From IMG/VR virus record IMGVR_UViG_2778261639_000004, positions 1-20,754 of that record: 20,754 nucleotides of DNA; one strand, 5' to 3'. Shown one piece after another: positions 8,929-13,442 of the stretch. The stretch is from a virus (Duplodnaviria > Heunggongvirae > Uroviricota > Caudoviricetes). How positions within the stretch are numbered: the first letter of the stretch is position 1; every line of letters begins with the position of its first letter. Both the position numbers and the translations under genes were made by a program. The notes under the pieces were generated by a model. The model saw only the letters and a list, made by a program, of their open reading frames with translations. It had not been told where the DNA came from and ran no database searches.

Positions 8929-10692
8929 ATGAATGACGTTACAGTTCTTACATCGGTTACTTACCCATCACCCGAGTCGTTGGCTCTGGTGGCTGATGTG
9001 CAATACCACGAACCATATCTGTCAGCCGCTCTAAACCGAAAATTCAGGGGAATTGTTGACCCAGGATTTTATGCTGGTTTCTTGCCTAAGCCTGGCGGTG
9101 GAATGAACCTGTTAATCACCTCAGTGGATGGAGATAAAACCGCTGGCGCGGCGTCAGTGGATATTGGTGAATTCTACCAGGTAACTATTCAGCATCGTAA
9201 GGATATCTCTCTTGCACTTAACGCAGGCAAGAAATATGCAATTGTGCTGAAGGGAAGATACCTTCTTGGAGAAGATACCTATCAGGTGAATACCGCGTCA
9301 CATATTCATGCAGCTGAATTTGTTGCCAGAACCTATACCGATTCATATCAGTTAGGTGATGGGGAACTGCTGGTTTGTACGGTGAATATCCCTGCTGGCG
9401 TATCTACCATTACTCAAGAGATGATTGATACATCCGAGCGTATCAACCGCACGATCGGCATTGATATTTCAGACTCTGTAACCAGTACCAGAAGTGATGT
9501 TGCTGCGAGTTCGCTGGCAGTTAAAAAAGCCTACGATCTGGCGAAAAGCAAGTATACGGCGCAGGATGCAAGCACAACGCAAAAGGGATTAGTTCAGCTC
9601 AGTAGTGCCACTAACAGTACGTCCGAAGTGCTGGCCGCCACACCGAAAGCTGTCAAGGCTGCATATGACCTGGCTAACGGGAAGTATACAGCCCAGGATG
9701 CAACCACGACACAAAAAGGGATAGTTCAGCTCAGTAGCGCCACGAACAGCACGTCTGAAACGCTGGCAGCGACACCAAAAGCTGTTAAGGCGGTAATGGA
9801 TGAAACGAACAAGAAAGCACCATTAAACAGCCCGGCACTGACCGGAACGCCAACAACACCAACAGCGCCACAGGGGACTAATAGTACCCAGATCGCAAGC
9901 ACGGCTTTCGTTATGGCCGCGATTGCCGCACTTGTAGATTCGTCACCTGATGCACTGAACACGCTGAACGAACTGGCTGCGGCGCTGGGCAATGACCCGA
10001 ATTTTGCGACCACCATGACTAACGCGCTTGCGGGTAAGCAACCGAAGGATGCCACCCTGACGGCGCTGGCGGAGCTTGCTACATCAGCAGATAAACTCCC
10101 ATATTTTACAGGGGCAGATCGTGCCGCGTTAACCGCGTTGACAAGTGTTGGACGTGCCATTCTTGGTAAAACCAGCACTCAGGGAGTTCTTGATTACCTT
10201 GGTTTGGGAGAAGGTTCGGCATTACCTGTTGGTGTCCCTGTTCCATGGCCTTCCGCCACTCCGCCGACAGGCTGGCTGAAATGCAACGGTGCAGCTTTTT
10301 CTGCTGAAGAATACCCGGAACTGGCAAAGGCTTATCCGACAAATAAATTGCCTGATTTACGTGGTGAGTTTATTCGTGGCTGGGATGACGGGCGTGGAGC
10401 TGACAGTGGTCGGGGATTATTAAGCTTTCAAAAAGCCACTCTGGTTGAAAGTTTTGGTCTGGTCAGGTCATCAACCACTGGCTCTTATCGTCTGGTTACC
10501 AGACCGACAGAAACTGTTTCTGATAATACGTCTAACTATATGACGACTGATTATGATTCCCATGAAGGTTTATATTCCTCTGCAACAGCATACCCCTCTA
10601 TCGAATTGAAACCAACTGGAGCAGGCGCAGGGGCTGGTTTTAGGGTTCGACCAAGGAATATTGCATTTAACTATATTGTGAGGGCTGCATAA
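8929..10692 (+). CDS. Tail fibre protein (587 aa): constant N-terminal part plus the currently expressed variable C-terminus
   Basis: ATG at 8929 with AAGGA 8 nt upstream. Two tandem 44-aa fibre repeats (AYDLA.KYTAQDA.TTQKG.VQLSSATNSTSE.LAATPKAVKA). C-terminal collar-like motif GWLKCNGAAFS...LPDLRGEFIRGWDDGRG. The crossover site at 10187-10212 lies inside the ORF. The track start at 8842 overlaps the upstream gene and lacks a ribosome-binding site. Confidence 0.85.
   Translation: MNDVTVLTSVTYPSPESLALVADVQYHEPYLSAALNRKFRGIVDPGFYAGFLPKPGGGMNLLITSVDGDKTAGAASVDIGEFYQVTIQHRKDISLALNAGKKYAIVLKGRYLLGEDTYQVNTASHIHAAEFVARTYTDSYQLGDGELLVCTVNIPAGVSTITQEMIDTSERINRTIGIDISDSVTSTRSDVAASSLAVKKAYDLAKSKYTAQDASTTQKGLVQLSSATNSTSEVLAATPKAVKAAYDLANGKYTAQDATTTQKGIVQLSSATNSTSETLAATPKAVKAVMDETNKKAPLNSPALTGTPTTPTAPQGTNSTQIASTAFVMAAIAALVDSSPDALNTLNELAAALGNDPNFATTMTNALAGKQPKDATLTALAELATSADKLPYFTGADRAALTALTSVGRAILGKTSTQGVLDYLGLGEGSALPVGVPVPWPSATPPTGWLKCNGAAFSAEEYPELAKAYPTNKLPDLRGEFIRGWDDGRGADSGRGLLSFQKATLVESFGLVRSSTTGSYRLVTRPTETVSDNTSNYMTTDYDSHEGLYSSATAYPSIELKPTGAGAGAGFRVRPRNIAFNYIVRAA
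9529..9792 (+). repeat. Tandem duplication of a 132-bp unit (~80% identity) encoding the 44-aa fibre repeat
   Basis: Copy 1 at 9529-9660 and copy 2 at 9661-9792, read directly; in frame within the tail-fibre gene. Confidence 0.8.
10187..10212. other. Left crossover site for the DNA invertase (TTCTTGATTACCTTGGTTTGGGAGAA)
   Basis: 26-bp site inside the tail-fibre ORF. Its reverse complement shares the first 14 bp with the site at 12090-12115, and the constant/variable fibre junction (…LGLGE…) maps here. Confidence 0.6.
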
Positions 10693-11294
10693 TGGATAAC
10701 GCCATATTAAATAGCGAGATTATCGCCACCAAAGCAGGGAATATTACCGTCTATAACTATGATGGTGAAACTCGAGAATATATTTCCACTTCAAATGAAT
10801 ATCTTGCTGTTGGCGTCGGTATCCCTGCATATTCCTGTTTAGATGCCCCTGGCACACATAAGGCGGGTTATGCTATCTGCCGTTCGATAGATTTAAACTC
10901 ATGGGAATATGTGCCAGACCATCGCGGTGAAATCGTCTATAACACCGAAACGGGAGACGCCAAAGAAATCACAACTCCGGGTGATTACCCCGAAAAAACA
11001 ACCACTATCGCCCCGTTAACGCCATACGATAAATGGGATGGTGAAAAATGGGTGACAGATACTGAGGCACAACACGGTGCCGCAGTAGACGCGGCAGAAG
11101 CACAGCGCCAGTCACTGATTGATGCAGCAATGGCTTCCATCAGTCTGATTCAACTGAAATTGCAGGCCGGACGTAAACTGACGCAGGCAGAAACAACCAG
11201 ACTTAACGCTGTACTGGATTACATTGACGCGGTGACGGCAACAGATACCAGCACCGCGCCGGATGTCATCTGGCCTGAACTGCCGGAGGCGTAG
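10692..11294 (+). CDS. Tail fibre assembly protein (200 aa)
   Basis: ATG overlaps the fibre stop (TAATG). C-terminal LDYIDAV...APDVIWPELP is typical of tail fibre assembly chaperones and is shared with the inverted copy. Confidence 0.8.
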   Translation: MDNAILNSEIIATKAGNITVYNYDGETREYISTSNEYLAVGVGIPAYSCLDAPGTHKAGYAICRSIDLNSWEYVPDHRGEIVYNTETGDAKEITTPGDYPEKTTTIAPLTPYDKWDGEKWVTDTEAQHGAAVDAAEAQRQSLIDAAMASISLIQLKLQAGRKLTQAETTRLNAVLDYIDAVTATDTSTAPDVIWPELPEA

Positions 11295-11709
11295 GCCATT
11301 CAATATCTGGCGCACCGGAAGTATCGATCAGCTCCAGTGCGTCCAGATAATCCAGCCACAAATTATATTGCGCCAGTTCATCACCTTTCAGACGACCAAT
11401 AGCGGCTTTGCCGGGCCATTGCTTACTGTTCATGTATTCGTTGGCCTGGTTAATTAGTAGCTGTCTTTCTGATTCAGTAATTTCAATAAGTTCTTCATGC
11501 GTGGGTGGAGGAATATCTGCCCACGCAGGCAGCCCATCACCTCCGGCAATACGGATTTTTCCTTGTGGCGGTTCAGCCATAAATTCACTGATAATATTTT
11601 GATTCACCTCTTTAGCATCTGATAAATCCCATCCCTCTGATTTATATTTATCAATCATATCCACAGGGAAAAAAGCATTATGCCTTGCGCTATAAACATA
11701 TTCGTTCAT
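11266..11709 (-). CDS. Alternative tail fibre assembly protein (147 aa), inverted copy
   Basis: - strand ORF with ATG at 11709 and AAGGGTGA about 8 nt upstream. C-terminus LWLDYLDALELIDTSGAPDIEWPTPP parallels the + strand copy. The GTG at 11718 in the ORF track has no usable ribosome-binding site. Confidence 0.75.
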   Translation of the reverse strand: MNEYVYSARHNAFFPVDMIDKYKSEGWDLSDAKEVNQNIISEFMAEPPQGKIRIAGGDGLPAWADIPPPTHEELIEITESERQLLINQANEYMNSKQWPGKAAIGRLKGDELAQYNLWLDYLDALELIDTSGAPDIEWPTPPAVQAR

Positions 11710-11729
11710 ATAAATCACCCTTAATAAAA

Positions 11730-12115
11730 TTACTCACCAACAGCCCACCAACTGTAATTCATCGATACTGTGGAACTGGTTGATGCAGTTCTGTAAGCGG
11801 AATTAAAACCGGTTAATGTTGGACCTTCTGCGGTCATCACGAATCCCCGTCCAGCACCTAAAGGTGCACCACCATCACCAGAATGAGTAAGCATGGCGCA
11901 GTCCACTTTTTTAGGAAAAGGGATGCTGAATGTAATTCTCATTGTTTGCGTCGATAATGTCGGCGTAACCGCACCTCGACCATATTGCAGGATTTTACCG
12001 TTGGGTAATTTCATCCATCCATCACCACTGGCAAAAGAAGCCATATCCGGTATCTGATTTTCCCCTGTTCCCACATCCCGTTTTGCCGCTTCTCCCAAAC
12101 CAACGTTTAAGAAAA
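11730..12115 (-). CDS. Alternative tail-fibre C-terminal cassette, promoterless in this orientation
   Basis: - strand frame is open from the right crossover site to the stop at 11730. The frame across the site encodes …VGLGE…, matching …LGLGE… at the left site, so inversion would fuse it to the constant part of the fibre gene. Confidence 0.65.
12090..12115. other. Right crossover site (TTCTCCCAAACCAACGTTTAAGAAAA)
   Basis: Matches the Salmonella hixL sequence as I recall it at about 19/26 positions, including the AAACC…GTTT core; inverted relative to the left site; 56 bp upstream of the invertase start. Confidence 0.6.
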
Positions 12116-12170
12116 TGCAGAGATTACGGCTAACTGGCATCATCCCCGGTTTTTATTCAGGGGATCCATC

Positions 12171-12743
12171 ATGCTTATTGGCTATGTCCGCGTATCAACA
12201 AATGACCAGAATACAGAATTGCAGCGTAACGCGCTGGAGTGCGCAGGATGTGAACTGATTTTTGAAGATAAAATCAGCGGAACGAAATCAGCCAGACCGG
12301 GATTGAAAAAACTGCTCAGAACGCTATCAGAAGGAGATACGCTGGTTGTCTGGAAGCTGGACAGACTGGGCAGAAGTATGAAACACCTGATCACGCTTAT
12401 TGAGGAATTGCGGGAAAAAGGTGTTAATTTCCGTAGTCTGACGGACAGCATTGACACATCAACACCCATGGGGCGTTTCTTTTTTCACGTCATGGGAGCT
12501 TTAGCCGAAATGGAACGTGAATTAATTGTAGAGCGTACACTGGCCGGGCTGGCAGCAGCACGCGCACAAGGACGCATTGGCGGACGTCGCCCGAAGTTGA
12601 CAAAAGAACAACATGAGCAAATAGCGAGGTTGATCGAAAATGGCTACAGCAGGAAACAGTTGGCAATTATTTACGATATCGGTGTATCGACGATTTATCG
12701 TTATCATCCTGTAGAGAAGCGCCAAACTCAATCTGAGCTGTAA
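12171..12743 (+). CDS. cin: Serine-recombinase DNA invertase, Hin/Gin/Cin/Pin family (190 aa)
   Basis: N-terminus MLIGYVRVSTNDQNT with the catalytic Ser in the VRVST context, VVWKLDRLGRS, and a C-terminal HTH (GRIGGRRPK…GVSTIYRY). Adjacent to the invertible segment. The symbol cin is chosen from the P1-like context; Gin and Pin are close relatives and cannot be told apart without alignment. Confidence 0.9.
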   Translation: MLIGYVRVSTNDQNTELQRNALECAGCELIFEDKISGTKSARPGLKKLLRTLSEGDTLVVWKLDRLGRSMKHLITLIEELREKGVNFRSLTDSIDTSTPMGRFFFHVMGALAEMERELIVERTLAGLAAARAQGRIGGRRPKLTKEQHEQIARLIENGYSRKQLAIIYDIGVSTIYRYHPVEKRQTQSEL

Positions 12744-13178
12744 TTCTAATGCCGCGTCGGTGTAATTTATCTTGATAGAATAGGTACATTTATCGCGCGG
12801 CACATCAATTCGATGTATCTAGCGCCTGCTGACCGCTAATGAAAACTGTTCTCGAAATGTTGTCCCTAGTCCGAGACTAGGGTATCACCTCTGGAAAGCA
12901 TACGCAGAACCTTTTTTAACCCAGGGTGCCCAGCCTTTTTGCTGCTCGCCTTATTCGCAAAAATTAGCTCACATCCTGCGCTTTCAAGTGCTTTTCACTG
13001 CATAGCTGTGTTTTGTTCATTTGTCTATATGCGTACATAGCCTATTAGCATATTTTCTGCCCACTATCGTTATTTATTGCAAGCTACAGGTTTTAATTAA
13101 CAAAACCAGTGTGTGTGGAAATCACAAAGTGCATACCGTTCTCAAATGTTGTTCAACTTACTGTTGTATAGGTAAAAA

Positions 13179-13442
13179 ATGACATTTTATGTACATATCG
13201 TGATGTTATCCCTTCTTGGTGGGGTGTATTCGTATTTGAGTGGGCTATGTGAAAACCGTTACGAGTCTTCATGCAAGAAATTGCTGGCCGAATGTATTTC
13301 CGCCGTACTTGCTGGCTTTATTGGCATGTATCTCGCGGAATATAAGGACATGAATGAAAGCCTTCAGAGCTGCATGGTTCTTATTTTCAGCGCCAATAGC
13401 AGGCTTATTATTGAAGGTTCCAAAAGTCGGTTGAATAGGTAA
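13179..13442 (+). CDS. Possible small membrane protein (87 aa, two hydrophobic segments)
   Basis: Only ORF in the invertase-holin spacer; weak AGGT ribosome-binding site; hydrophobic stretches MLSLLGGVYSYLSGL and ISAVLAGFIGMYL. May be non-coding. Confidence 0.3.
   Translation: MTFYVHIVMLSLLGGVYSYLSGLCENRYESSCKKLLAECISAVLAGFIGMYLAEYKDMNESLQSCMVLIFSANSRLIIEGSKSRLNR

What the first reader, a model, noticed from the sequence alone, without database searches (positions are those of the whole stretch)
10187..12115. Invertible tail-fibre switch with two hix/gix-like crossover sites and a promoterless alternative C-terminus
Two 26-bp sites in inverted orientation (10187-10212 TTCTTGATTACCTTGGTTTGGGAGAA; 12090-12115 TTCTCCCAAACCAACGTTTAAGAAAA) share a 14-bp half and resemble the hix/gix consensus. 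The left site sits inside the fibre ORF at …LGLGE…, and the - strand cassette encodes …VGLGE… across the right site, so inversion would swap about 160 C-terminal residues (collar-type domain) for about 120 different ones and switch the assembly chaperone. The segment is ~1.9 kb, far shorter than the 4.2 kb P1 C-segment and closer in size to the e14 P-segment, which suggests a mosaic host-range module on a P1-like backbone.
Basis: partly seen in the sequence, partly recalled or inferred. Interest (0 to 1): 0.6.

Follow-up and report, generated by a model that had tools for sequence, protein, structure and literature searches.

The report
Pin-type invertible tail-fibre switch, P1-like plasmid
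A P1-like phage-plasmid has swapped P1's own 4.2-kb host-range switch for a compact 1.9-kb flip-flop DNA segment of the well-known e14/P2-prophage (Pin) type. Flipping it gives the tail fibre one of two alternative tips and matching chaperones. This is a real but ordinary and already widespread example of a textbook mechanism.

Summary
Two 26-bp sites lie in inverted orientation at 10187-10212 and 12090-12115. They share a 14-bp inner half and the same TT/AA core. A modelled inversion of 10201-12101 fuses the minus-strand cassette in frame. S(+) is 587 aa with a Collar-domain tip, and S(-) is 547 aa with a Gp53-like_C tip. Each tip is followed by its own Caudo_TAP chaperone.

An intact 190-aa serine invertase sits next to the right site. 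It is 83% identical to PinE, 76% to Cin and 72% to Gin, and 98% to an O157:H7 P2-like prophage invertase. Its 5' end keeps the enhancer region, with two Fis-consensus matches 48 bp apart.

The sites are nearly identical to the e14 pix sites. Two O157:H7 genomes carry 26-bp sites identical to the window's, and differ in that region essentially only by inversion between them, so both isomers exist in nature.

The backbone is P1 (96.7% identity), including the late promoter LPs. P1's cin survives only as a decayed 5' remnant.

The same replacement junction occurs in 147 PLSDB plasmids and in 171 of 5,426 complete E. coli genomes.

Verdict: a new member of a known kind, of low to moderate interest. 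Inversion in this molecule itself is inferred, not shown.

The parts
8434..8452 (+). Late promoter LPs of the tail-fibre operon (P1 type)
   Evidence: Window 8405-8490 matches the P1 region that contains the annotated LPs (-22 box and -10) at 85 of 86 positions, and the LPs stretch itself is 100% identical. Its function here is inferred from the P1 annotation.
8483..8917 (+). Gene R (tail-fibre protein R, 144 aa)
   Evidence: The ORF is listed. It lies in the 95%-identical P1 block 8402-9675. The precomputed Pfam hit is PF26881 Phage_P1_tail_fiber_R.
8929..10692 (+). Tail-fibre gene S in the present orientation (587 aa). The constant part Sc is 8929-10200 and the variable tip Sv is 10201-10692.
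   Evidence: Translation is. Pfam finds Phage_fiber_2 repeats and a Collar domain at aa 435-482. The N-terminal ~250 aa are nearly identical to P1 S. From 9578 onward the DNA is 95% identical to the fibre gene of an O157:H7 P2-like prophage.
10187..10212 (.). Left crossover site (pixL-like), core TT at 10199-10200, inside the fibre ORF at ...DYLGLGE...
   Evidence: The identical 26-mer is the inversion breakpoint in O157:H7 BB24-1 versus FRIK944. The same 26-mer occurs in P1-like plasmids L002 and L012.
10201..12101 (.). Invertible segment (1,901 bp between the two core dinucleotides)
   Evidence: The modelled inversion is in frame. The homologous segment is found in both orientations between identical flanks in nature. 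It is in the opposite state in phage pro483 and in prophages of strains CEC08123 and PA2.
10201..10692 (+). Sv cassette: the tip now fused to Sc (159 variable aa, Collar domain)
   Evidence: Pfam PF07484. It is 58% identical to e14 StfE overall, and the first 200 nt are 95% identical. The same tip occurs at 95-99% identity in E. coli proteins of 176-177 aa and 260-276 aa.
10692..11294 (+). Tail-fibre assembly chaperone for Sv (200 aa, TfaE-like)
   Evidence: Pfam Caudo_TAP, E = 6.6e-32. It is 90.5% identical to e14 TfaE.
11266..11709 (-). Alternative tail-fibre assembly chaperone (147 aa), expressed with Sv' after inversion
   Evidence: Pfam Caudo_TAP, E = 9.7e-31. It is 53% identical to e14 TfaP and 97-100% identical to the chaperone of the O157:H7, CEC08123 and pro483 modules. 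Its ATG at 11709 lies 21 nt after the Sv' stop and is preceded by AAGGGTGA.
11730..12143 (-). Sv' cassette. Positions 11730-12101 supply 119 alternative C-terminal residues (Gp53-like_C). In the present orientation the frame continues across the right site to an ATG at 12143, giving a 137-aa ORF.
   Evidence: Pfam PF21882, E = 3.1e-13. The ORF is listed and translated. The cassette is 97-99% identical to the tip that is fused to the fibre in BB24-1, CEC08123 and pro483. The modelled fused junction is found contiguous at 99.4% identity in two E. coli chromosomes.
12090..12115 (.). Right crossover site (pixR-like), core AA at 12102-12103, 55 bp upstream of the invertase ATG
   Evidence: It matches the e14 right site at 25 of 26 positions. 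The identical 26-mer is the breakpoint in the O157:H7 isomer pair.
12171..12743 (+). DNA invertase (190 aa, Pin/Gin/Cin/Hin family serine recombinase), transcribed away from the segment as gin and pinE are
   Evidence: Pfam Resolvase plus HTH_7. The full-length alignment to Gin crystal chains 4m6f and 3uj3 has E = 3e-92 and the Ser9 motif YVRVSTNDQ is intact. It is 76% identical to Cin, 83% to PinE, 98% to the FRIK944 prophage recombinase, and 100% to the invertase of P1-like plasmid pRHB25-C13_2.
12193..12255 (+). Candidate recombinational enhancer (sis) inside the invertase gene, with two Fis-consensus matches (12193-12207 and 12241-12255) whose centres are 48 bp apart
   Evidence: Gene nt 19-90 match the annotated P1 cin enhancer at 57 of 72 positions, pinE at 61 of 72 and gin at 58 of 72. 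The consensus matches fall at the same positions in cin, pin and gin. The consensus and the 48-bp rule are recalled from the Hin/Gin/Cin literature, and function here is inferred.
12875..13051 (-). Decayed 5' remnant of the ancestral P1 cin gene (about 58 codons, with in-frame stops including one at the catalytic Ser codon), followed by the P1 cin promoter region and lydC
   Evidence: The DNA is 82% identical to P1 14828-15248. The translation is MLIGYVRI*TNEQNTAMQ*K....

Best explanation
This is a functional Din-family (Hin/Gin/Cin/Pin) site-specific inversion switch of the Pin/e14 subtype. It controls the receptor-binding end of the tail fibre of a P1-like phage-plasmid.

Proposed mechanism:
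- The tail-fibre operon R-S-tfa is transcribed from the P1 late promoter LPs.
- The first 424 codons of S (Sc) lie outside the segment.
- The 190-aa serine invertase, encoded just right of the segment, binds the two 26-bp sites at 10187-10212 and 12090-12115.
- With host Fis bound to the enhancer inside the invertase gene's own 5' end, it exchanges strands at the central TT/AA dinucleotide and flips the 1,901-bp segment.
- In the orientation sequenced, Sc is fused to a 159-aa Collar-domain tip and is followed by a TfaE-like chaperone.
- After inversion, Sc is fused in frame to a 119-aa Gp53-like tip and is followed by a TfaP-like chaperone.
- A lysogen population therefore releases two virion types with different receptor specificity (bet-hedging on host range).

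Proposed history: the region from inside Sc (about 9578-9675) to inside cin was replaced by the homologous region of a P2-like or e14-like prophage. This left a dead cin stub.

What is shown: the anatomy, the in-frame fusion, the homology, and natural isomers of a module with identical sites. What is inferred: invertase expression and activity, Fis dependence, the flip in this very molecule, and different receptors for the two tips.
For: - Sites: the exact 14-nt inverted repeat occurs only at these two places in the window. The cores are identical and both lie in the same codon phase.
- Homology of the sites to experimentally defined crossover sites, taken at annotated positions: P1 cixR/cixL, the Mu G-segment boundaries and the e14 pix sites. 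The inner half-site GGTTTGGGAGAA is identical to e14's, and the right site matches e14's at 25 of 26 positions.
- The site lies at the same fibre position as cixR in P1 S.
- The in-frame fusion was modelled.
- Domains: Collar versus Gp53-like_C tips, two Caudo_TAP chaperones, and Resolvase plus HTH_7.
- The invertase is full length and aligns end to end with Gin structures. It is 72-83% identical to Gin, Cin and PinE.
- The enhancer region is conserved, with two Fis-consensus matches 48 bp apart at the same positions as in cin, gin and pin.
- Natural inversion: O157:H7 BB24-1 and FRIK944 have 100% identical flanks (4,511 and 2,300 nt). Between them, a 1,917-nt segment with 1 mismatch is inverted. 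The breakpoints fall in 26-mers identical to the window's.
- The modelled inverted left junction exists contiguously in 8 complete E. coli genomes, at up to 99.4% identity. Phage pro483 carries the same cassette pair in the other state.
- Among P1-like plasmids with the 100% identical invertase, the collar-type cassette is on the fibre strand in some (window, L012, L013) and on the opposite strand in another (L002).
- e14 and P2-like prophage segments of this kind flip measurably in E. coli cultures (PMC4272514; PMC12529663).
- The LPs promoter is 100% conserved.
Against: - There are no reads or alternative assemblies for this molecule, so flipping here is not observed. The window is one draft contig, NLVG01000072.1.
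- The left site's outer half (TTCTTGATTACC) is a poor dyad partner, matching 7 of 12 positions. P1 cixR is similarly imperfect.
- The simple sigma-70 scan found no promoter for the invertase.
- Fis sites were judged only by a degenerate consensus recalled from the literature.
- The receptors of the two tips are unknown.
- A related phage record (vB_EcoM-813R1) has the same invertase split into two ORFs, so some copies of this module are decaying.
Confidence: 0.85

Rival explanations
1. The switch is a frozen relic. The sites, both cassettes and the invertase gene were inherited from a prophage donor, but in this P1-like element the segment no longer inverts at a useful rate. The cause could be an unexpressed invertase or an enhancer or left site that is too degenerate. 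The element would then make only the Collar-tip fibre.
For: No promoter-like site was found upstream of the invertase. The left outer half-site is degenerate. One relative (vB_EcoM-813R1) has a split invertase and only one recognisable site. Venturini et al. (PMC6906374) judged the switches in their three P1-like plasmids, which differ from this one, to be probably impaired. No orientation data exist for this contig.
Against: The invertase ORF is intact and 100% identical across several P1-like plasmids that hold different cassettes or orientations. Identical 26-mers are the breakpoints of a natural isomer pair with essentially no other differences. The silent cassette and its chaperone are intact ORFs, 97-100% identical to copies that are expressed elsewhere. 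The enhancer positions are conserved.
Confidence: 0.1
2. Dual use, not exclusive of the main explanation. The minus-strand ORF 12143-11730 (137 aa: a 13-aa leader encoded outside the segment plus the Gp53-like tip) is expressed on its own in the lysogen. It would act as a free receptor-binding protein that blocks adsorption of other phages, as reported for e14 StfE2. Inversion would then toggle a lysogen defence phenotype as well as virion host range.
For: The ORF has its own ATG outside the segment. It has the same architecture as e14 StfE2 and weak homology to it (28% identity, E = 1e-5). StfE2 is reported to block T2 adsorption (PMC12529663). Gene callers annotate this ORF as a gp53-like domain protein in many genomes.
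Against: No promoter-like site was found on the minus strand. The Shine-Dalgarno context is poor, with GGGG abutting the ATG. The leader residues are largely dictated by the outer half-site sequence, so the ORF may be incidental. The e14 result relied on plasmid overexpression.
Confidence: 0.1
3. The inverted repeat is a chance match, and the minus-strand ORFs are ordinary convergent genes with no recombination.
For: With 2 mismatches allowed, 2 of 100 shuffles gave two or more matches to the 14-mer.
Against: The match is exact, lies at the codon-phase-compatible position, and sits at the homologue of cixR. It is nearly identical to the e14 pix sites and is the actual breakpoint of natural isomers.
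Confidence: 0.01

Closest known systems
e14 P-segment / PinE (E. coli K-12 cryptic prophage e14)
   Same: The architecture is the same: Sc-[Sv tfa | tfa' Sv']-invertase, with the invertase transcribed away from the segment. The size is about 1.8-1.9 kb. The inner half-sites are identical and the right site matches at 25 of 26 positions. One cassette is shared: TfaE is 90.5% identical and the first 200 nt of the collar tip are 95% identical. A short leader ORF crosses the right site.
   Different: The invertase is only 83% identical to PinE. The second cassette (the Gp53-like tip and its chaperone) is divergent: 53% for the chaperone and no DNA match for the tip. The constant part is a full-length P1/P2-type fibre of 424 aa, not e14's short StfP stub. 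The context is an active-looking P1-like phage-plasmid rather than a defective lambdoid remnant.
Invertible tail-fibre (gene H) module of P2-like prophages (E. coli O157:H7 FRIK944 / BB24-1; phage pro483)
   Same: This is the closest relative and the likely donor type. Window 9578-12714 is 93-97% identical to it, apart from 10397-10647. Both 26-bp sites are identical in the O157:H7 prophages, and the invertase is 98% identical over 181 aa. pro483 carries the same cassette pair at 88-98% protein identity, but its sites and invertase (82% identical) differ. Both orientations are documented there.
   Different: The N-terminal two-fifths of the fibre, the promoter and all surrounding genes are P1, not P2. 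The invertase C-terminus differs (190 versus 199 aa). The distal 83 aa of the collar tip are a different allele.
P1 C-segment / Cin
   Same: The backbone, operon and promoter (LPs) are the same, the crossover falls at the same position in S (...YLGL), and the logic of alternative Sv/U sets is the same. The sites follow the same 12-2-12 plan with a TT core.
   Different: P1's segment is 4,256 bp, and its Sv/U/U'/Sv' are homologous to Mu's. None of the four cassette proteins here matches P1 or Mu at E < 1e-3. P1 cin is transcribed toward the segment and ends at cixL, whereas here the invertase reads away from the segment and cin is only a decayed stub.
Mu G-segment / Gin
   Same: The gene order and invertase orientation are the same. 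The invertase is 72% identical and aligns fully with the Gin crystal structures. The enhancer lies in the 5' end of the invertase gene.
   Different: The G segment is 3 kb with 34-bp inverted repeats and a TC core. The cassettes are unrelated.
p15B Min multiple-inversion system (shufflon-like)
   Same: It is a P1-related plasmid with a Din-family invertase acting on tail-fibre gene ends. This rests on the P1 record's notes, on PMC6906374 and on recalled knowledge.
   Different: Min has six crossover sites and many cassettes. This window has only two sites, so it is a simple two-state switch.

Membership tests
Din-family (Hin/Gin/Cin/Pin) DNA inversion system | A small (~185-200 aa) serine recombinase with an N-terminal catalytic domain (active-site Ser9/10) and a C-terminal HTH | tested here: met
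   Pfam Resolvase (E = 5.8e-52) plus HTH_7. The full-length alignment to Gin chains 4m6f and 3uj3 has the YVRVSTNDQ motif intact. It is 72-83% identical to Gin, Cin and PinE.
Din-family (Hin/Gin/Cin/Pin) DNA inversion system | Two 26-bp crossover sites in inverted orientation, each made of two imperfect 12-bp half-sites around a 2-bp core, with the same core in both sites | tested here: met
   Sites at 10187-10212 and 12090-12115 have cores TT and AA. They align position by position with the annotated cix, gix and pix sites.
Din-family (Hin/Gin/Cin/Pin) DNA inversion system | A cis-acting recombinational enhancer with two Fis sites 48 bp apart, usually in the 5' end of the invertase gene | tested here: inconclusive
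   Sequence only. The region matches P1's annotated enhancer at 57 of 72 positions. Two matches to the degenerate Fis consensus lie 48 bp apart at 12193-12207 and 12241-12255, at the same positions as in cin, gin and pin. Binding and function cannot be tested here.
Din-family (Hin/Gin/Cin/Pin) DNA inversion system | The segment is actually found in both orientations | tested here: inconclusive
   This cannot be tested for this molecule, which is a single draft contig. It is met for a module with identical sites: BB24-1 versus FRIK944 differ essentially only by the inversion. The inverted junction is present in 8 genomes.
Phage tail-fibre host-range switch (Sc + alternative Sv/chaperone sets) | The crossover site lies inside the fibre ORF, so that both orientations give complete in-frame fibres with different C-termini, each followed by its own assembly chaperone | tested here: met
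   The modelled inversion gives 587-aa and 547-aa fibres sharing 428 N-terminal residues. The tips are Collar and Gp53-like_C, each followed by a Caudo_TAP gene.
Phage tail-fibre host-range switch (Sc + alternative Sv/chaperone sets) | The two tips confer different receptor or host specificity | not testable with these tools
   The tips belong to different Pfam families, which suggests different receptors, but no receptor can be assigned by sequence.
P1 C-segment / Cin system proper | A functional cin gene abutting cixL and transcribed toward the segment, and a 4.2-kb segment carrying Mu-like Sv/U and Sv'/U' | tested here: not met
   cin is a 177-nt remnant with stop codons. The segment is 1.9 kb. 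There is no similarity to P1 or Mu Sv/U proteins. The active invertase is on the other strand relative to P1 cin.
e14 Pin / P-segment subtype | pix-type sites (inner half GGTTTGGGAGAA; right outer half TTTTC(A/T)TAAACG), a ~1.8-1.9-kb segment, TfaE/TfaP-type chaperones, and an invertase downstream that reads outward | tested here: met
   Sites were compared. The chaperones are 90.5% (TfaE) and 53% (TfaP) identical. Layout is shown. The invertase is 83% identical to PinE, so it is a paralogue-level relative and not PinE itself.

The most novel reading that the evidence does not exclude
The 'silent' cassette may not be silent. The 137-aa minus-strand ORF (12143-11730) starts outside the segment and ends in the Gp53-like receptor-binding domain. 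It could be expressed in the plasmid-prophage state and block adsorption of competing phages, as claimed for e14 StfE2. The Pin-type module that has replaced cin in about a third of P1-like plasmids would then be a combined host-range and superinfection-defence toggle. That could help explain why it spread on this backbone.
Probability: 0.08. Interest if true: 0.6.

Novelty: new member of a known kind. Interest (0 to 1): 0.22.

Why it matters
P1-like phage-plasmids are frequent carriers of resistance genes such as mcr-1 and blaCTX-M, and their host range depends on this fibre tip. Earlier surveys noted that the cin/C-segment region varies, and one suggested the switch is often impaired (PMC6906374; PMC9603915).

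The analysis here shows that in this element the P1 switch was replaced wholesale. The same junction occurs in 147 PLSDB plasmids and in 171 of 5,426 complete E. coli genomes. The replacement is an intact, compact Pin-type switch shared with P2-like and e14-like prophages, so such elements probably still alternate between two receptor specificities. They can also trade tip cassettes with chromosomal prophages.

This is useful for predicting the host range of resistance-carrying P1-like elements and for annotation, but it adds no new mechanism.

Tried and rejected
- Extra crossover sites (a Min-like shufflon): searches for the half-site and for AAACCNNGGTTT found only the two sites. Rejected.
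- A terminator-like hairpin at 12132-12151 between the right site and the invertase: folding gave z = 0.10 against shuffles. Not supported.
- The sigma-70 promoter scan of 8300-13300 found nothing near the invertase or on the minus strand near 12143. It found fewer sites overall than the shuffles did. Uninformative.
- Rfam scan of the whole window: no family matched.
- NCBIfam gave no named family for the fibre, tips or chaperones, and only sub-threshold hits for the invertase.
- Similarity of the cassettes to P1 or Mu Sv/U/Sv'/U': none at E < 1e-3, so the idea of a shortened C-segment was rejected in favour of replacement.
- The ~1.9-kb 'circular plasmid' records that match the segment were considered as possible excised circles. 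They contain only the segment interior (window 10207-12091) joined head to tail, without the shared half-sites. Inverted sites cannot excise a circle, so these were judged to be assembly artefacts.
- The present-orientation junction query (9701-10700) found no record covering 80% or more. The cause is the divergent distal tip (10397-10647), not a missing junction. The tip allele itself exists elsewhere at 95-99% identity.
- Structure prediction and fold searches were not run. They would not change the verdict.

Full report
**Observation**

- Left site: 10187-10212, TTCTTGATTACC-TT-GGTTTGGGAGAA.
- Right site: 12090-12115, TTCTCCCAAACC-AA-CGTTTAAGAAAA.

Read in inverted orientation, the sites share an exact 14-nt stretch. 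The repeat finder extends it to 18 nt at 94% complementarity, the best inverted pair in the region. The sites match at 19 of 26 positions. The 14-mer occurs nowhere else in the 20.7-kb window even with two mismatches allowed, against a chance expectation of 0.26. No additional half-sites were found, so this is a two-site system, not a shufflon.

**Anatomy**

The plus strand carries the following:
- R at 8483-8917.
- The fibre gene S at 8929-10692 (587 aa), with three Phage_fiber_2 repeats and a Collar domain at aa 435-482.
- A 200-aa Caudo_TAP chaperone at 10692-11294.

Converging on these from the minus strand are:
- A 147-aa Caudo_TAP chaperone at 11709-11266.
- A Gp53-like_C cassette that ends at 11730. 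Its frame runs across the right site to an ATG at 12143.

A 190-aa Resolvase plus HTH_7 protein is encoded at 12171-12743 on the plus strand, 55 bp beyond the right site.

I modelled strand exchange at the central dinucleotides, 10199-10200 (TT) and 12102-12103 (AA). Both cores occupy codon positions 2-3 in the same frame. The inverted molecule encodes a 547-aa fibre that shares 428 N-terminal residues (through ...DYLGLGE) and then continues AAKRDVGTGENQ... for 119 new residues. The present orientation has 159 variable residues.

**Backbone**

The window is 96.7% identical to phage P1 over 83% of its length, and 96-98% identical to many ~95-kb non-mobilizable E. coli and Salmonella plasmids. 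Gene order follows P1: pmgC, tub, pmgB, sit, pmgA, bplA, 16, R, S ... lydC, lydA, lydB, hdf, darA, ddrA, ddrB. The annotated P1 late promoter LPs is 100% conserved upstream of R at window 8434-8452. The window is the whole of draft contig NLVG01000072.1 of GCA_002510355.1.

**What replaced what**

P1 identity holds at 95% up to 9675 and resumes at 82% only at 12875. Between those points, window 9578-12714 is 93-97% identical to the tail-fibre, invertible-segment and invertase region of a P2-like prophage of E. coli O157:H7. The exception is a 250-nt stretch (10397-10647) in the distal collar tip.

The left junction lies inside the 131-nt tandem fibre repeats at 9529-9791. These are shared fibre motifs and a natural place for homologous exchange.

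Right of the new invertase sits a relic of P1 cin on the minus strand, about 58 codons at 13051-12875. It has in-frame stops, one of them at the catalytic serine codon (MLIGYVRI*TNEQ...).

The P1 C-segment is 4,256 bp, with cin reading toward the segment. Here it has been replaced by a 1,901-bp segment whose invertase reads away from it, as in Mu and e14. None of the four cassette proteins resembles P1 or Mu Sv/U/Sv'/U' at E < 1e-3.

**The sites compared with defined sites**

I extracted the crossover sites at the annotated positions in P1 and Mu, and the matching ones in e14:

| Site | Sequence |
|---|---|
| P1 cixR | TTATCCAATACC TT GGTTTAAGAGAA |
| P1 cixL (reverse complement) | CAATCCTAAACC TT GGTTTAAGAGAA |
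| Mu gix | TTATCCAAAACC TC GGTTTACAGGAA |
| e14 left | CTCTCGAAAACC TT GGTTTGGGAGAA |
| e14 right (reverse complement) | TTTTCATAAACG TT GGTTTGGGAGAA |
| window left | TTCTTGATTACC TT GGTTTGGGAGAA |
| window right (reverse complement) | TTTTCTTAAACG TT GGTTTGGGAGAA |

The window's inner half-sites are identical to e14's, and its right site differs from e14's by one base. These are pix-type sites. In the fibre protein the crossover falls at the position homologous to P1 cixR...YLGL|RELG in P1 and ...YLGL|GEGS here.

**Invertase and enhancer**

The invertase aligns end to end with the Gin crystal-structure chains (4m6f and 3uj3, E about 1e-92), and the YVRVSTNDQ serine motif is intact. Its identity to relatives is as follows:

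| Relative | Identity |
|---|---|
| Invertase of P1-like plasmid pRHB25-C13_2 | 100% |
| O157:H7 FRIK944 prophage recombinase (over 181 aa) | 98% |
| PinE | 83% |
| Cin | 76% |
| Gin | 72% |

Nucleotides 19-90 of the gene correspond to the enhancer annotated inside P1 cin. They match cin at 57 of 72 positions, pinE at 61 of 72 and gin at 58 of 72.

I scanned with the degenerate Fis consensus (G/T)NNYRNN(A/T)NNYRNN(C/A), recalled from the Cin-enhancer literature. It matches at gene nt 23-37 and 71-85 (window 12193-12207 and 12241-12255). The centres are 48 bp apart and fall at the same positions in cin, pin and gin. This fits the known two-Fis-site enhancer, but it is sequence inference only.

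**Does this module flip?**

I cannot test this molecule. For a module with the same sites the answer is yes.
- O157:H7 strains BB24-1 and FRIK944 were compared over 8.7 kb. The flanks are 100% identical (4,511 and 2,300 nt). The 1,917-nt stretch between them has a single mismatch and is inverted. The breakpoints lie inside 26-mers identical to the window's two sites.
- A 1,000-nt query built from my modelled inverted left junction (Sc + Sv' + chaperone') is found contiguously in 8 complete E. coli genomes, at 99.4% identity in CEC08123 and PA2.
- Phage pro483 carries the same cassette pair with the Gp53-like tip fused to its fibre.
- Among P1-like plasmids with the identical invertase, collar-type cassettes lie on the fibre strand in some and on the opposite strand in another.
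- Published read-level work shows that e14 and P2-like prophage segments of this family flip in ordinary E. coli cultures (PMC4272514). PinE, PinQ and PinR invert the e14 segment (PMC12529663).

**How common is it, and is it known?**

A 651-nt probe across the invertase 3' end and the cin relic is fully covered in 147 PLSDB plasmids and in two phage records, vB_EcoM-813R1 and vB_EcoM-673R5, annotated 'Hin1/Hin2'. A 201-nt junction probe is covered in 171 of 5,426 complete E. coli genomes, mostly on ~95-kb plasmids.

Surveys of P1-like elements list the cin-Sv'-U'-U-S region as hypervariable (PMC9603915). One judged the variant switches in its three plasmids to be probably impaired (PMC6906374). 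I found no paper that describes this Pin-type replacement as an intact switch, but the literature search was limited to open-access text.

The exact 587-aa fibre is on record only in this contig. Every one of its parts exists elsewhere, and the collar tip allele occurs at 95-99% identity in E. coli proteins of 176-177 aa and 260-276 aa.

**Interpretation**

The best explanation (confidence 0.85) is a working Pin-type, Fis-dependent two-state inversion switch. It alternates the receptor-binding tip and chaperone of a P1-like fibre, and was acquired by homologous replacement from a P2-like or e14-like prophage.

The rivals are:
- A locked relic (0.1).
- An additional, non-exclusive role for the 137-aa ORF that crosses the right site (0.1). 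It has the architecture of e14 StfE2, a short leader encoded outside the segment plus a Gp53-like domain, at 28% identity. StfE2 has been reported to block T2 adsorption (PMC12529663). No promoter or good ribosome-binding site supports its expression here.
- Chance, which the natural isomers exclude.

**Verdict**

This is a new member, and a new mosaic combination, of a textbook class. It is widespread in databases. Interest is low to moderate (0.22).

Noticed in passing
window 12875-13051 (- strand): A decayed 5' remnant of P1 cin, about 58 codons with in-frame stops, one at the catalytic Ser codon. It still carries part of the old enhancer sequence and forms a ~94-nt, 78%-identical inverted repeat with the 5' end of the new invertase gene (12171-12264 versus 12958-13051).
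   Followed up: yes
window 9529-9791: Two tandem 131-nt copies (81% identical) encode Phage_fiber_2 repeats. The switch from P1-like to P2-prophage-like sequence (P1 identity ends at 9675, prophage identity starts at 9578) falls inside them, which suggests homologous exchange within shared fibre repeats.
   Followed up: partly
window 10397-10647: The distal ~83 codons of the collar tip are a sub-mosaic unlike the O157:H7, e14 or pro483 cassette. The same allele occurs at 95-99% identity in E. coli proteins of 176-177 aa (silent-orientation ORFs) and 260-276 aa (short e14-type fibres).
   Followed up: partly
PLSDB records NZ_CP148551-CP148556 and NZ_CP104636 (L009 = NZ_CP148554.1, 1-1891): Several 1.8-1.9-kb 'complete circular plasmids' consist only of the interior of this kind of invertible segment (window 10207-12091 equivalent) joined head to tail. 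They are most likely assembly-graph artefacts of a flipping segment, not real plasmids.
   Followed up: partly
L013 (CP098993.1) 3262-3287 and 5093-5118: In this P1-like plasmid both inner half-sites carry the same G-to-A change (GGTTTAGGAGAA / TTCTCCTAAACC), while the outer halves and the invertase are unchanged. This is consistent with inner half-sites travelling with exchanged segments.
   Followed up: no
window 11730-12143 (- strand): A 137-aa ORF starts with two ATGs outside the segment, crosses the right site and ends in the Gp53-like domain. Its architecture matches e14 stfE/StfE2, which a 2025 paper reports as an adsorption-blocking protein. No promoter or good ribosome-binding site was seen.
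   Followed up: partly
L008 (phage vB_EcoM-813R1, ON470617.2) 5673-6244: The same invertase is split into two ORFs annotated Hin1 and Hin2, and only one pix-like site is recognisable. The fibre region is annotated as four 'fragment' ORFs. This could be a decaying or mis-sequenced copy of the module.
   Followed up: no
window 12715-12874: About 160 nt lie between the end of prophage homology and the start of the cin relic, and match neither P1 nor the O157:H7 prophage. The stretch contains a short hairpin, CCCTAGTCCGAGACTAGGG (about 12865-12883). It is conserved at 99% or more in about 150 E. coli records, mostly P1-like plasmids. Its origin is unknown.
   Followed up: partly
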